In this document: positions 37,077 through 39,845 of the stretch, piece by piece
Position numbering within the stretch: position 1 is the stretch's first letter
How the letters are laid out: every line of letters starts with the position of its first letter
Source: a virus
Taxonomy: Duplodnaviria; Caudoviricetes
Length of the DNA stretch: 64,000 nt
IMG/VR virus record: IMGVR_UViG_3300010262_000138
Span: 48,217-112,216 of that record
Reading direction: 5' to 3' (one strand)
Translations under genes and position numbers: made by a program
Notes under the pieces: model-generated
The model's input: only the letters and a program-made list of their open reading frames with translations
Told to the model about the DNA's origin: nothing
Databases searched by the model: none

Positions 37077-37382
37077 GATAAAGCATGGCGTATTGAAAAT
37101 TAGGAGCGATGCCTTCACACCGCCCCTATTGCGACTAGCTCCCCAAAGAGAGCCAGATGGCCTTAATGACCTCGCAAATTATCCCGGCGATTACGCCGCA
37201 AATAATCTCCTTGGCTTCAGGACGCATCCGATACCTCCTAACGAGACCAAAAGTTTAGCCTCGAGCGGCCTTTCGCTCTCGTTTCTTCGATTAGGAGATA
37301 ACAATCGCAGTTACAGAATAGCATATCCAGAAAAGGTTTGCAATCTGTAGACGGGAAATAGTTCAATACGCCACGCTTTGTC
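37077..37382. other. Inverted-repeat-bounded antisense peptide cassette 1
   Basis: 21-bp IRs 37077-37097/37362-37382 (19/21) enclose a minus-strand promoter, leader, sORF and terminator. Confidence 0.75.
37135..37227 (-). CDS. 30-aa hydrophobic peptide, type I toxin-like (MRPEAKEIICGVIAGIICEVIKAIWLSLGS)
   Basis: AGGAGGT RBS; promoter TTGCAA-17-TATTCT (37343-37315); terminator hairpin 37101-37128. Confidence 0.75.
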   Translation of the reverse strand: MRPEAKEIICGVIAGIICEVIKAIWLSLGS

Positions 37383-37401
37383 TTAAATATTAGGAGGTAT
37401 T

Positions 37402-37701
37402 TTGATGGATGTAAAAATGCGTTTAGTATTAAATTATCTTGAAAGTCTTCAATATGATATTTGCGAGTCTATGATTGGACCGCAAAATTACAATAGAATT
37501 AACGGCGTGTCTCCTAAAGAGTTTGTGCAAAATCTTCTCTTCTTAAAGGAAGATGGATATATAGGGATAAATTTTTTGGGAAACCCGTCAGAAAATACAC
37601 ATTGCATAATCACAATGACCAAAAAGATGGCAGACGACAAATACTGTAGAGAACGTAATATTTTATACCTATTAAATAAATGGTTTAAGAAAGCCAAGTA
37701 A
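37402..37701 (+). CDS. Small wHTH-like protein, convergent paralog A
   Basis: AGGAGG RBS; aligns with 37672-37989. Confidence 0.7.
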   Translation: MMDVKMRLVLNYLESLQYDICESMIGPQNYNRINGVSPKEFVQNLLFLKEDGYIGINFLGNPSENTHCIITMTKKMADDKYCRERNILYLLNKWFKKAK

Positions 37702-37989
37702 CGATTTTGCCTTACTCCACAAGTCGTCTTGAAAATATGATTTAGCCCTAGGCTTTATTCTTACATAGCACGCATGTTCCGGAGATGGAACTCCTAAGAA
37801 TTGTACGGAAATATACCCCTCACTTTGAATATCAAGTAACTGCCTAATAAACTCGTCAGGAGAAATCCCGTCTATCGCGGAATAGCTTTTAGTGTTAAGC
37901 AACGTGTCATTCTGACTATCGTAATTAAGAGATAATAAGTATTTAAGCACACGTTTAAACTCTTTCTTATTCATTTTAACCACCATCAT
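37672..37989 (-). CDS. Small wHTH-like protein, convergent paralog B
   Basis: Aligns with 37402-37701. Confidence 0.7.
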   Translation of the reverse strand: MMVVKMNKKEFKRVLKYLLSLNYDSQNDTLLNTKSYSAIDGISPDEFIRQLLDIQSEGYISVQFLGVPSPEHACYVRIKPRAKSYFQDDLWSKAKSLLGFLKPFI

Positions 37990-38018
37990 CTATCATGTCA
38001 TAAAGGAGAGAAAATTCA

Positions 38019-38516
38019 ATGACTTACACATCAGCAAGTGCCCACAAACAAATCAAGCTATGGACAGAAGAGCGCGACGCTTTAATTCAAAAGGAGCGGG
38101 AAATCTGCTCGTATACCTATCAGGCGGGAGAGGAACCGGTAATTGAAAAATACGATTTTGTTAATACGCAATGCCGAATCGCGGAATATAACAACAAGAT
38201 TGCCGATCTAAGACACGCTGTTAATCTTTTCAATACAACAACGGTATTGCCCGGACTTGGCTTCACAATTGACGAAGCGCTTGTAAGAATGTCAATGCTT
38301 AACGATCAGAAAAACCGTCTCTCTCGTATGAAAGATATCAGAGAGAAAACGAGACAAACCAACTATAAAGGAATATCAGAATTTACAGAACGCAATTTTA
38401 ATATAGACGATTGTGAAGCTCTGTATCAGAAGGTTTGTAATGAGCTAATTCAAATTCAGCTTTCCATTGATAAGACAAATCTTACAGAACAGTTTGATGT
38501 TCCTGACGAAGATTAA
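38019..38516 (+). CDS. DIP1984/DUF6847-like helical protein
   Basis: I..L.HA.N.FN.TT...TIDEAL....L and ID..N motifs. Confidence 0.7.
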   Translation: MTYTSASAHKQIKLWTEERDALIQKEREICSYTYQAGEEPVIEKYDFVNTQCRIAEYNNKIADLRHAVNLFNTTTVLPGLGFTIDEALVRMSMLNDQKNRLSRMKDIREKTRQTNYKGISEFTERNFNIDDCEALYQKVCNELIQIQLSIDKTNLTEQFDVPDED

Positions 38517-39010
38517 CCATTGCCATTTGTGAAAATTGAAAAGGGTACGTCGCCGCACCCTTTCAGTCATCAATACCGCAGATGACGGAGCGTTTCCCTT
38601 ACGAACATATAGATCGTAAGTACATCAGCAAGTGCGCCGATCATGCGGAGCACATATAGCATCAGTTCGCCCACTGCATCACTGCCTTTCATATATATGC
38701 TGAAAGTACGGGACCCTCACTCTGAGCAAGTGAGTGTAGTCATATGAGCGGGTTGATGACGCCAAAATTATAATACAGTTTACACAAAACGGCAAGCCCT
38801 AATATCCGTCCATCCAGTCCACAACTAAACAAAAGAAAATTCTATCAAGTATCTGTAGACGTATCGTTGATGTTATAAGATTATTTTGTTATTTATTGTC
38901 TGTATGTGCATAAGATGAAGAAGTCTATAGAAGAAATTCTATTTTTAATATCATAATTGGATTGGTAAAAACTTAGGAAAGAGGTCTTTCCCCGGCAAAA
39001 GTAGATGGTT
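38515..39010 (+). ncRNA. Candidate ~500-nt structured ncRNA coupled to the DIP1984-like gene
   Basis: No ORF; ends pair (AACCAT/ATGGTT); tandem hairpin domain 38537-38760; long nested helix 38798-38977 enclosing a U-rich quasi-repeat loop. Confidence 0.6.
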
Positions 39011-39025
39011 ATATGCCGGATATCC

Positions 39026-39369
39026 TGTGCCGCAGCCGAATGATAGGCAGTCAGTTAGTTTGTAAAAGCAGAGTTAAAAAGAGGGCGTGATATTCACGCC
39101 CTGACGGTTAACGACCCCTCATAAGCACTCAGTTTAACAAGGCGCTATAGGTAGCGATCGTTATATTAACGCAGATATCCATGAGATCCATGCCAACACC
39201 TCCTGTATGTAAACTAAAATGAGAGGTTCTTCCCTTAATAACCTTAACACCTCAATTTAGTAACAAAAGGACCGCTACTTTATTATAGCAAATTATTCAA
39301 TTTATACAATAACAAAACTCTTACAAATTCAACTGATGTATGCTGGTTCGAGTCCAGCCGGCACAACCA
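39026..39369 (+). tRNA. Split tRNA gene with ~270-bp insert in the anticodon loop (anticodon ambiguous; TTC if 39057-39327 is removed)
   Basis: 5' half TGTGCCG-CA-GCC..GGC-A-GTCAG-TT (39026-39056); 3' half AA-CTGAT-GTAT-GCTGG-TTCGAGT-CCAGC-CGGCACA-ACCA; all stems pair. Confidence 0.8.
39129..39191 (-). CDS. 20-aa hydrophobic peptide MDLMDICVNITIATYSALLN (27 aa to 39108 if TGA is read through), type I toxin-like
   Basis: AGGAGGT RBS; promoter TTGTAT-16-TATAAT (39309-39282); terminator 39076-39102. Confidence 0.6.
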   Translation of the reverse strand: MDLMDICVNITIATYSALLN

Positions 39370-39449
39370 ACGGAGAATAGGTTGTCAGTTAGTCATCTCC
39401 GGACAAAAACGATTAAGACTGTCTGGCAGGCCGGAAAGACGGCCGATAT

Positions 39450-39524
39450 ACGCCCTTAGCTCAACGGAAGAGCACACTCCTTATAAGGGTGAGGTTGTGG
39501 GGTCAGAACCCACAAGGCGTACCA
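39450..39524 (+). tRNA. tRNA-Ile (anticodon UAU), atypical T-loop
   Basis: Cloverleaf with CT-TAT-AA loop and encoded CCA; T-loop GTCAGAA; one C.A acceptor mismatch. Confidence 0.8.
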
Positions 39525-39578
39525 GATCATTTTCGTAAATCTACGAAAACTGATAATTAAAAAGAAAGAAGGTAAGTT

Positions 39579-39845
39579 ATGACAGAACCCCAGAAGTATC
39601 AATGTCCCTATTGTAAAACCTGGTATGAAACACCCAGAGAGATGGCCCTTTGTACGATTCGCTGCGATGAAGCGAGAGAGGAGATGGAAAAGAGAAAACG
39701 AGAATTAGAATTCAAAGAGAAAAAGGCTCAGAGATCTAGTGAACTTAAGCAAAAATATGTAGAATTACAGAATTTGTGTAAGTCATATGCACATGATTAC
39801 GGGACAGATCTTCCTATCACGTTCCCGTTGAAAATTTTTTTCTAA
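39579..39845 (+). CDS. Zn-finger/coiled-coil hypothetical protein
   Basis: YQCPYC motif, RBS. Confidence 0.7.
   Translation: MTEPQKYQCPYCKTWYETPREMALCTIRCDEAREEMEKRKRELEFKEKKAQRSSELKQKYVELQNLCKSYAHDYGTDLPITFPLKIFF

What the first reader, a model, noticed from the sequence alone, without database searches (positions are those of the whole stretch)
38019..39010. DIP1984/DUF6847-like protein followed by a ~500-nt ornate non-coding RNA: candidate protein-RNA system
Seen: about 500 nt with no ORF begins at the stop codon of the 165-aa gene. Its ends pair (AACCAT 38515-20 / ATGGTT 39005-10). The 3' half forms nested long-range helices: CCTAA/TTAGG, TCCAGT/ATTGGA, TGTAGAC 38854-60 / GTCTATA 38923-29. 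These enclose a single-stranded U-rich loop of about six 6-8-nt quasi-repeats (ATCGTT GATGTT ATAAGATT ATTTTGTT ATTTATT GTCTGTAT, 38863-38905). A GGAAAG-AGGT-CTTTCC hairpin follows. Established: DIP1984-like proteins are helical proteins of unknown function. Inference: an oligomer binds the periodic loop one repeat per subunit (TRAP- or ToxIN-like logic), forming an uncharacterised ribonucleoprotein co-transcribed with the phage tRNAs.
Basis: partly seen in the sequence, partly recalled or inferred. Interest (0 to 1): 0.85.

Follow-up and report, generated by a model that had tools for sequence, protein, structure and literature searches.

The report
Partner RNA behind a DIP1984-like gene
Behind a small phage gene of unknown function lies a real, conserved, knotted RNA of about 220 bases; the same gene-plus-RNA pair occurs in gut bacteria and their phages, is in no RNA catalogue, and probably forms an undescribed protein-RNA particle.

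Summary
The core of the finding holds, but the boundaries and several details are wrong. The conserved RNA is about 220 nt (window 38802-39019), not 500 nt.

Its parts are:
- a 5' UAUCCG motif;
- a 3' H-type pseudoknot with a conserved loop.

A model of the 3' module hits once, on the gene's strand, 150-290 nt after the stop codon, in 33 of 36 loci that encode a homolog of the 165-aa protein. It hits nowhere in 751 kb of related phage DNA without that gene. All three helices covary. The RNA matches no Rfam 15 family, and no paper in the library mentions the protein family.

The first ~280 nt of the flagged stretch (38517-38795) are a variable insertion. It carries a minus-strand mini-gene and is partly absent from the closest relative. 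The proposed end pairing, AACCAT/ATGGTT, is not conserved.

The protein has the DIP1984 fold (PDB 3KDQ), is predicted to form a dimer, and is acidic. RNA binding is inferred, not shown. One phage lineage carries only the 60-nt pseudoknot core, with no rail and no protein.

This scan has already found the same gene-RNA pair on other DNA.

The parts
38019..38516 (+). Gene for a 165-aa DIP1984-fold protein, the constant partner of the RNA.
   Evidence: ORF. Pfam DUF6847 E=0.002, 18.6 bits, below the cut-off of 27. AF2 model pLDDT 94.5. Best structural match 3KDQ: Foldseek E=6e-5, TM 0.6; VIA Z=12.2 over 151 residues, next rows 8.6 or lower. 1233 cluster representatives at E<=1e-3. Homodimer model 0.69 against best control 0.39.
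38517..38795 (.). Variable spacer between gene and RNA; not part of the conserved RNA.
   Evidence: 38581-38766 is absent from L002, which is otherwise 99% identical. A third variant (L126) has a 24-nt in-frame duplication inside it. In most relatives the RNA starts 0-45 nt after the stop codon.
38540..38563 (-). Hairpin followed by a T-run on the minus strand. It is probably the terminator of the minus-strand mini-gene.
   Evidence: Inverted repeat I9. One compensatory change in L002, GGGT/ACCC to AGGT/ACCT. The tail is TTTTCAATTTTC on the minus strand and is not U-rich on the plus strand.
38573..38692 (-). Hypothetical 40-aa hydrophobic mini-ORF. The minus-strand promoter-like site TTGCCG-17-TATAAT lies at 38795-38767.
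   Evidence: ORF; promoter scan, 10 of 12 matches. There is no clear Shine-Dalgarno sequence. The only database relative is the same phage. Coding status is unproven.
38802..38808 (+). 5' motif AUAUCCG (family consensus UUCCG; CCG is invariant in the alignment).
   Evidence: Alignment A4 has C, C and G invariant. The motif lies 120-200 nt upstream of the 3' loop in nearly all loci. Candidate partners are the CGG/UGG of the 3' loop (compensatory variants in L112, L108, L101 and L099) or CGGAUAU at 39017-23. The choice is unresolved.
38810..38818 (+). P1, 5' strand (CCAUCCAGU).
   Evidence: Pairs with 38956-65 at -12.0 kcal/mol. Across 20 loci the cognate strands average -14.4 kcal/mol and non-cognate strands -7.1 (sd 3.7); most cognate pairs rank 1-2.
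38863..38908 (+). Rail of GU-rich units (GUUAU/UUAUU type) spaced 6-8 nt apart.
   Evidence: TTATT occurs in 18 of 19 loci and GTTAT in 17 of 19. GTT autocorrelation: z=15.3 at lag 7 and z=11.9 at lag 13. The 16-nt core TTATTTTGTTATTTAT recurs downstream of homologs.
38956..38965 (+). P1, 3' strand (AUUGGAUUGG).
   Evidence: It also appears in the minimum-free-energy folds.
38967..39019 (+). 3' pseudoknot core. Its elements are AAAAAC (38967-72), S1 ACUU 38971-74 with AAGU 38999-39002, an optional hairpin (38976-81 with 38986-91), S2 CCGGCA 38992-97 with UGCCGG 39014-19, and the loop GAUGGUUAUA 39004-13 (consensus CGGUUAYA).
   Evidence: CM R1 hit at 38966-39022, 32.2 bits. Covariation on A7: 79.9% paired against 60.3% in shuffles, score 0.532 against 0.194, slid controls 0.184 or lower. 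All 8 S2 pairs and 2 S1 pairs show compensatory changes, and G-U pairs fix the strand.
39026..39369 (+). Adjoining tRNA-like gene. Its 5' processing would set the 3' end of the RNA.
   Evidence: Acceptor stem TGTGCCG/CGGCACA plus ACCA, a canonical T arm, and a ~278-nt insert in the anticodon loop. Fold z=-5.08. It is the only such candidate in the window. tRNA genes start 4-12 nt after the RNA in L084 and L114 as well.

Best explanation
Window 38802-39019 encodes a ~220-nt structured RNA of an uncatalogued family. It is the dedicated companion of the DIP1984-fold protein gene at 38019-38516.

Shown:
- The RNA has a conserved architecture: a UUCCG motif, a long-range helix P1 that closes a ~130-nt domain holding a rail of GUUAU-type units about 7 nt apart, and a 3' H-type pseudoknot with a conserved loop that holds one more GGUUAY unit.
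- It lies on the gene's strand, once, directly downstream of the gene, in gut Firmicutes, a Coriobacteriia species and many phages.

Inferred:
- The protein, as a symmetric dimer and perhaps in higher order, binds the rail unit by unit to form a ribonucleoprotein. The pseudoknot core serves as a fixed, nuclease-resistant end or a nucleation site.
- In this phage the RNA is made as part of a precursor with the following tRNA-like gene and tRNA-Ile, and tRNA 5' processing frees it.

The first ~280 nt of the flagged region are not part of the RNA. They are a variable insertion with a minus-strand promoter, a 40-codon ORF and a terminator. What the particle does is unknown.
For: Gene-to-RNA association:
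- The model of the 3' module hits once, on the plus strand, 150-290 nt after the stop codon, in 33 of 36 homolog loci. It gives 0 hits in 751 kb from 79 related phage loci without the gene.
- Two whole genomes each hold a single copy, at the gene.
- All four independently drawn family representatives carry it: two by the model, and two by eye, one of those cut off by the contig end.

Structure:
- S2 and S1 covary.
- P1 cognate strands pair far better than non-cognate ones.
- G-U pairs place the RNA on the gene's strand.

Rail:
- Heptad periodicity, z=15.
- In the one phage lineage that lacks the protein in records judged complete, the RNA is reduced to the ~60-nt core without rail or P1. Rail and protein therefore go together.

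Protein:
- Confident model with the DIP1984 fold.
- Homodimer score 0.69 against a best control of 0.39. In the tool's calibration, 20 of 30 proteins solved as pairs and 1 of 23 solved as single chains reached the mark. The three runs share at least 97% of contacts and the partner pLDDT is 90. The solved multi-chain relative 3KDQ may contribute from memory.

Separate unit:
- Spacers with hairpins, or with an inserted cassette, lie between gene and RNA in the window, L102/L103 and L127. The RNA is therefore not merely the tail of the coding region.

Processing:
- tRNA-type genes start 4-12 nt after the RNA in the window, L084 and L114.
Against: - No binding data and no transcript data exist. 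No RNA run holds the stretch.
- The proteins are acidic (median pI 5.1), which is unusual for a protein that coats RNA.
- The rail is only loosely periodic, with chains of 2-6 units at 6-8 nt spacing.
- The pseudoknot core can exist without the protein gene, so at least that part has a role that does not need a protein encoded beside it.
- The window's copy is among the weaker matches: 32 bits, loop UGG instead of CGG, and S1 of only 4 pairs. In L002 the invariant CCG reads CUG, so some decay in this lineage cannot be excluded.
- Folding energy is not exceptional.
Confidence: 0.55

Rival explanations
1. The element is a cis-acting 3' untranslated region of the DIP1984-like mRNA. It would be a stabilising end structure or a site for feedback control of that gene, with no separate life as an RNA or particle.
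For: In most loci the element starts 0-45 nt after the stop codon, on the same strand, with no obvious promoter of its own. In Faecalibacterium a strong intrinsic terminator follows it, so it would end the gene's transcript.
Against: The window, L102/L103 and L127 have 100-280-nt spacers with hairpins, or a convergent cassette, between gene and RNA. A ~25-nt set of near-invariant unpaired bases and a pseudoknot are more than a stabiliser needs. The core also occurs behind an unrelated AAA+ gene.
Confidence: 0.2
2. The RNA acts on its own or with a host factor. The conserved core would be a small ribozyme, a ligand-binding aptamer or a decoy. The protein works in the same pathway without binding the RNA.
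For: A 60-nt core alone is kept, with covarying S2, in a phage lineage without the protein. The core has many invariant unpaired bases. The proteins are acidic.
Against: The rail and P1 are lost exactly where the protein is absent. The pair is strictly adjacent and single-copy across distant taxa. There is no match to any ribozyme or riboswitch family.
Confidence: 0.15
3. The pair is a toxin-antitoxin or abortive-infection module of the type III (ToxIN-like) kind. The repeated RNA would neutralise a toxic protein.
For: A protein gene is tightly linked to an RNA that carries repeats, and the pair occurs on phages.
Against: The RNA lies downstream of the gene, not upstream. The units are loose 7-nt motifs, not exact tandem repeats of ~36 nt. 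The protein is a helical DIP1984 fold, not an endoribonuclease fold. PADLOC gives only weak coiled-coil noise. In Faecalibacterium the pair sits at a fixed chromosomal place between housekeeping-type genes.
Confidence: 0.05
4. One reading: one ~500-nt RNA spans 38517-39010 and is closed by AACCAT/ATGGTT.
For: The minimum-free-energy fold of 38510-39015 uses that pairing, with z=-2.48.
Against: 186 nt of the 5' part are dispensable in a near-identical phage. The 5' part has the signals of a minus-strand gene. ATGGTT belongs to the conserved pseudoknot loop. No relative has such a closing helix.
Confidence: 0.03

Closest known systems
DIP1984 family / Pfam DUF6847 (PF20935; NCBIfam NF038048; crystal structure 3KDQ, Corynebacterium diphtheriae)
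   Same: Same fold over nearly the whole length (VIA Z=12.2, 151 residues; Foldseek E=6e-5). Weak profile matches. Function unknown in both.
   Different: Sequence scores lie below both curated cut-offs, so this is a distant sister group. It has its own invariant residues (E26, Y45, H66, N72, D85, R112, Q147, D151, N154). No RNA partner is recorded for the family in Pfam, NCBIfam or the papers searched.
TRAP with the trp leader, and HutP with the hut terminator RNA (Bacillus)
   Same: In both, an oligomeric protein reads evenly spaced short units on a single-stranded RNA. That is the logic proposed here.
   Different: Those units are triplets (GAG/UAG) in 5' leaders that control attenuation, and the proteins are beta-rich rings. 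Here the units are GUUAU-type at ~7 nt, the RNA lies after the gene and ends in a pseudoknot, and the protein is a helical dimer. There is no homology.
CsrA/RsmA with the CsrB/RsmZ sponge RNAs
   Same: A dimeric protein and an RNA that displays many copies of one short motif.
   Different: The Csr motifs are GGA in hairpin loops, the RNA genes are unlinked to csrA, and CsrA is a small beta-rich protein.
Phage T4 gene 32 autoregulatory leader
   Same: A pseudoknot beside an unstructured U/A-rich repeated stretch on which a protein binds cooperatively, encoded with the protein's own gene.
   Different: The T4 element is a 5' leader that controls translation of gene 32, and gp32 is an ssDNA-binding protein. 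Here the element follows the gene and is closed by P1.
RAGATH-18 RNAs and IS607 TnpB (PMC11061315)
   Same: A precedent: an orphan structured RNA always found next to one protein gene proved to be that protein's RNA partner.
   Different: That pair is a transposon-borne RNA-guided nuclease. Nothing here suggests a guide or a nuclease.
RAGATH-27 (Rfam RF03100), named as closest known in earlier notes of this scan
   Same: An orphan candidate small RNA of phage-rich DNA.
   Different: No match at E<=5-10 in the window or in nine representative loci.

Membership tests
DIP1984 / DUF6847 protein family | Score at or above the curated cut-off of the Pfam model PF20935 (27 bits) | tested here: not met
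   18.6 bits, E=0.002
DIP1984 / DUF6847 protein family | Score at or above the NCBIfam NF038048 cut-off (70 bits) | tested here: not met
   No hit for the window protein. Homologs P0003 and P0007 reach 21 and 17 bits.
DIP1984 / DUF6847 protein family | Fold of the solved member 3KDQ | tested here: met
   VIA Z=12.2, rmsd 4.6, 151 aligned; next hit 8.6. Foldseek TM 0.60/0.63.
Any Rfam 15 family (ROOL, GOLLD, OLE, raiA, RAGATH-27, group I intron and the rest) | Covariance-model match at the family's gathering score | tested here: not met
   Nothing but tRNA at E<=10 in window 38500-39460. Nothing over the element at gathering score in 8 loci or at E<=5 in 9 loci. Nothing for the mini-core.
Type III toxin-antitoxin (ToxIN, CptIN, TenpIN) | Tandem near-exact RNA repeats upstream of the toxin gene, separated from it by a terminator | tested here: not met
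   The RNA is downstream, and its units are loose 6-8-nt motifs.
Type III toxin-antitoxin (ToxIN, CptIN, TenpIN) | Toxin with an endoribonuclease fold | tested here: inconclusive
   Only 3KDQ stands out among the fold matches. Absence from a hit list does not exclude a fold.
TRAP-type or HutP-type periodic RNA recognition | Triplet units (G/U)AG spaced 2-4 nt apart in a 5' leader that controls a terminator | tested here: not met
   The units are GUUAU-type at ~7 nt, located after the gene.
DIP1984-associated pseudoknotted rail RNA (family defined here and in earlier notes of this scan) | Lies on the gene's strand directly downstream of a DIP1984-fold gene | tested here: met
   Window hit at 38966-39022, plus strand. 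The spacer is longer than usual.
DIP1984-associated pseudoknotted rail RNA (family defined here and in earlier notes of this scan) | 5' UUCCG motif followed by the P1 helix, whose 3' strand abuts AAAAAC | tested here: met
   AUAUCCG 38802-08; P1 38810-18 with 38956-65 at -12 kcal/mol; AAAAAC 38967-72.
DIP1984-associated pseudoknotted rail RNA (family defined here and in earlier notes of this scan) | Rail of GUUAU-type units about 7 nt apart inside P1 | tested here: met
   38863-38908, with a chain of 4 units at 6-8 nt spacing.
DIP1984-associated pseudoknotted rail RNA (family defined here and in earlier notes of this scan) | 3' H-type pseudoknot (S1 ACUUC/GAAGU, covarying S2, loop CGGUUAYA) | tested here: met
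   R1 32.2 bits. S2 is 6 perfect pairs. S1 has 4 pairs. The loop reads AUGGUUAUA, with one change from the consensus.

The most novel reading that the evidence does not exclude
The DIP1984-fold protein and its rail RNA form a previously unknown, widespread class of ribonucleoprotein in gut Firmicutes, Coriobacteriia and their large phages. Protein dimers would line up on a heptad rail, and the double-pseudoknot core would be a separate functional module (catalytic, ligand-binding or host-factor-binding) that some phages carry alone. Its place at the head of phage tRNA arrays would point to a role in tRNA or translation biology during infection.
Probability: 0.35. Interest if true: 0.85.

Novelty: categorically new. 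Interest (0 to 1): 0.8.

Why it matters
A protein family of unknown function has at least 1233 sequence clusters at 50% identity and a crystal structure deposited in 2009. It turns out to come with its own conserved, pseudoknotted RNA. Orphan RNA-protein pairs of this kind have repeatedly opened new biology; RAGATH-18 with TnpB is the example cited above.

The pair occurs in abundant human and animal gut bacteria such as Faecalibacterium and in large phages, where it heads tRNA clusters. Cultivable carriers make it testable. The natural variants found here give ready-made dissection constructs:
- the full RNA;
- the RNA separated from its gene by an insertion;
- the 60-nt core alone, without the protein.

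Tried and rejected
- Expression data: no RNA holder is listed for window 37900-39700. The one run offered held a single 201-nt contig inside the protein gene. Nothing can be said about transcripts.
- Known RNA families: four Rfam scans gave only tRNA and chance-level rows.
- Phage T5, named in earlier notes as a carrier: no match with the protein profile A5, with PF20935 or with RNA model R1. The claim is not reproduced with this subfamily's models and is not excluded.
- Named phages: tblastn of a family member found only two unannotated gut phage fragments.
- Inner helix around the rail (TGTAGAC/GTCTATA): the cognate versus non-cognate duplex test did not discriminate.
- Split tRNA at 39026-39369 as an intron-bearing tRNA: ARAGORN with introns allowed finds nothing. 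There is no group I match, and no G lies near the would-be 3' splice site.
- Defence annotation: PADLOC gave only weak coiled-coil hits.
- Sequence search of the PDB with the profile: no significant hit.
- The 40-aa minus-strand ORF: the only database relative is the same phage, so conservation cannot be judged.
- Synteny route: relatives found through the neighbouring HD-domain gene do not carry the 165-aa gene or the RNA near that gene.

Full report
**Context.** The window is the last 64 kb of a 112-kb IMG/VR phage contig. The 165-aa ORF at 38019-38516 is followed by 1062 nt without a long ORF, up to 39578. That stretch holds tRNA-Ile(UAU) at 39450-39524. No Rfam family other than tRNA matches the region, even at E<=10.

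**The flagged 500 nt are not one unit.** The closest relative (L002, another IMG/VR contig) is 99-100% identical on both sides. It lacks 38581-38766 and 37383-38016, and its 165-aa gene is only 89% identical in DNA.

The missing 186 nt and their flanks carry minus-strand gene signals:
- a promoter-like site, TTGCCG-17-TATAAT, at 38795-38767;
- a 40-codon hydrophobic ORF at 38692-38573;
- a hairpin with a T-run at 38563-38540.

A third variant of the same phage has a 24-nt in-frame duplication in that ORF.

**What is conserved.** I collected homologs of the protein and read their downstream DNA.

- The same three blocks appear behind almost every homolog. They are a UUCCG motif, a GU-rich stretch with GUUAU/UUAUU units that includes the window's 16-mer TTATTTTGTTATTTAT, and a 3' block of the form AAAACUU...GAAGUWCGGUUAYA.
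- The carriers are Faecalibacterium, Lachnospiraceae, Erysipelotrichaceae, Dorea, Saccharofermentans, Slackia and a dozen phage contigs.
- In the window these blocks lie at 38802-39019. In most relatives they begin 0-45 nt after the stop codon. The window's extra ~280 nt are therefore an insertion between the gene and its RNA.

**Structure.**
- *P1.* The bases just after UUCCG pair with the bases just before AAAAAC. The sequences differ between loci but the position is the same. Cognate strands give -14.4 kcal/mol on average and non-cognate strands -7.1 (sd 3.7); the cognate partner ranks first or second in most loci.
- *3' block.* It is an H-type pseudoknot. S1 is ACUUC/GAAGU. S2 flanks the conserved loop.
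- *Covariation.* I built a covariance model of this block (R1) and counted pairs on its alignment of 33 hits, 28 of them distinct. 79.9% of cells pair, against 60.3% in shuffles. The covariation score is 0.532, against 0.194 in shuffles and 0.184 or lower with slid partners. All eight S2 pairs and two S1 pairs change on both sides. Frequent G-U pairs fix the strand as that of the gene.
- *A possible third contact.* The invariant CCG may pair with the loop CGG. Four loci vary in a compensatory way: CCC:GGG in L112, L108 and L101, and CCUU:AAGG in L099. The window has the wobble form CCG:UGG. This is suggestive only. In the window, AUAUCCG could instead pair with CGGAUAU (39017-23).
- *Rail.* It is quantitatively periodic. 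GTT recurs at lag 7 (z=15.3) and lag 13 (z=11.9). Runs are short, 2-6 units.

**Association.**
- R1 hits once, on the plus strand, 150-290 nt after the stop codon, in 33 of 36 loci with the gene. The three loci without a hit are a garbled contig (L093), a doubtful Nocardioides match (L107) and L113, which has the rail.
- R1 gives no hit in 751 kb from 79 related phage loci without the gene.
- Two whole genomes each hold one copy, at the gene.
- Four family representatives drawn independently from a 1233-cluster profile search all carry the RNA.
- The reverse test was an exact pattern scan of IMG/VR, which found 28 contigs. Five have the gene and the full RNA. About 21 belong to a single phage lineage. 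One looks like a chance match in coding DNA.
- That lineage has a ~60-nt mini-form behind an AAA+ ATPase-like gene: UUCCG, six bases, then the pseudoknot, with no P1 and no rail. S2 covaries within the lineage. No DIP1984-like gene is found anywhere in five of its records, two of them judged complete.
- So the core is a separable module. P1 and the rail go with the protein. That is the best indirect argument that the rail is the protein's site.

**The protein.**
- Pfam and NCBIfam matches to DUF6847/DIP1984 fall below their cut-offs.
- A confident model (pLDDT 94.5) matches only 3KDQ clearly: Foldseek E=6e-5 and VIA Z=12.2 against 8.6 or lower for the next rows.
- A symmetric homodimer passes the controls, 0.69 against 0.39. 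Several invariant residues lie at the interface.
- The family is acidic (median pI 5.1). This counts against a simple RNA-coating role.
- No paper in the library mentions DUF6847 or DIP1984.

**Link to tRNAs.** The RNA ends 6 nt before a 344-nt tRNA-like gene (39026-39369, fold z=-5.08). In L084 and L114 ordinary tRNAs start 4-12 nt after the RNA, and other phage carriers have tRNA arrays nearby. RNase P cleavage of the downstream tRNA would give the RNA a defined 3' end. This step is inferred.

**Verdict.**
- The gene-RNA pair is genuine, conserved and uncatalogued.
- Physical binding and function remain to be shown.
- Earlier follow-ups of this scan reached the same general reading on other genomes. 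I reproduced the pair independently here. I added the insertion variant and the protein-less mini-core. I could not reproduce the T5 and RAGATH-27 links with this subfamily's models.

Noticed in passing
window 39026-39369 (+), insert 39055-39332: A tRNA-like gene: 7-bp acceptor stem, ACCA, canonical T arm and a degenerate D arm. Its anticodon stem (GTCAG/CTGAT) is split by a ~278-nt insert whose ends pair (TTTGTAAAAG/CTCTTACAAA). Fold z=-5.08. On the minus strand the insert holds TTGTAT-16-TATAAT, AGGAGG, a 20-codon ORF (39191-39129) and a terminator (39102-39082). ARAGORN and Rfam find no intron-bearing tRNA and no group I intron.
   Followed up: partly
window 38530-38795 (-): A minus-strand mini-gene cassette lies between the DIP1984-like gene and its RNA: a promoter-like site, a 40-aa hydrophobic ORF without a clear SD, and a terminator. 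186 nt of it are deleted in L002, and 24 nt are duplicated in frame in L126. It looks like a type I toxin, but coding is unproven.
   Followed up: partly
window 37077-37382 (-): A third small minus-strand cassette of similar build: TTGCAA-16-TATTCT, TAGGAGGT, a 30-aa ORF (37227-37135) and a hairpin with the tail AATTTTCAAT. Three such units lie within 2.3 kb of an otherwise plus-strand region.
   Followed up: no
window 37383-38580 compared with L002: A mosaic hot spot. Two small ORFs (37402-37701 on plus, 37672-37989 on minus) are absent from L002. The 165-aa gene is 89% identical in DNA (91% in protein), while the flanks are 99-100% identical. The RNA (38767 onward) belongs to the conserved block.
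   Followed up: partly
L147:3155-3225, and about 20 related IMG/VR contigs (L133, L153, L157, L159 and others): A 60-nt mini-form of the RNA core: UUCCG, six bases, AAAAACUUU, S2, GAAGUUCGGUUAUAA, S2'. It lies 25 nt after the stop codon of a 372-aa AAA+ ATPase-like gene, in a lineage of 100-250-kb gut phages without any DIP1984-like gene. S2 covaries within the lineage. No Rfam match.
   Followed up: partly
window 39371-39413 and L007:983-1030: Directly after the CCA end of the tRNA-like gene lies a hairpin whose stem differs completely between the two phages (CGGAGA/TCTCCG against AGTGAGT/ACTCACT). The 19-nt loop (AUAGNUUGNCAGUU..UCA) and the following ACAAAAACGAU are kept. The loop repeats 17 nt of the tRNA-like gene's own D and anticodon region (39043-59 against 39377-93).
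   Followed up: no
L007:1104-1219, L007:3774-3876, L007:940-990: A related phage has further tRNA-like genes with canonical acceptor, D and T arms but with odd or replaced anticodon arms. It also has an acceptor/T-arm minihelix. Phage carriers of the RNA (L116, L123, L114) show weak YrlA (Y RNA-like) matches below the gathering score.
   Followed up: no
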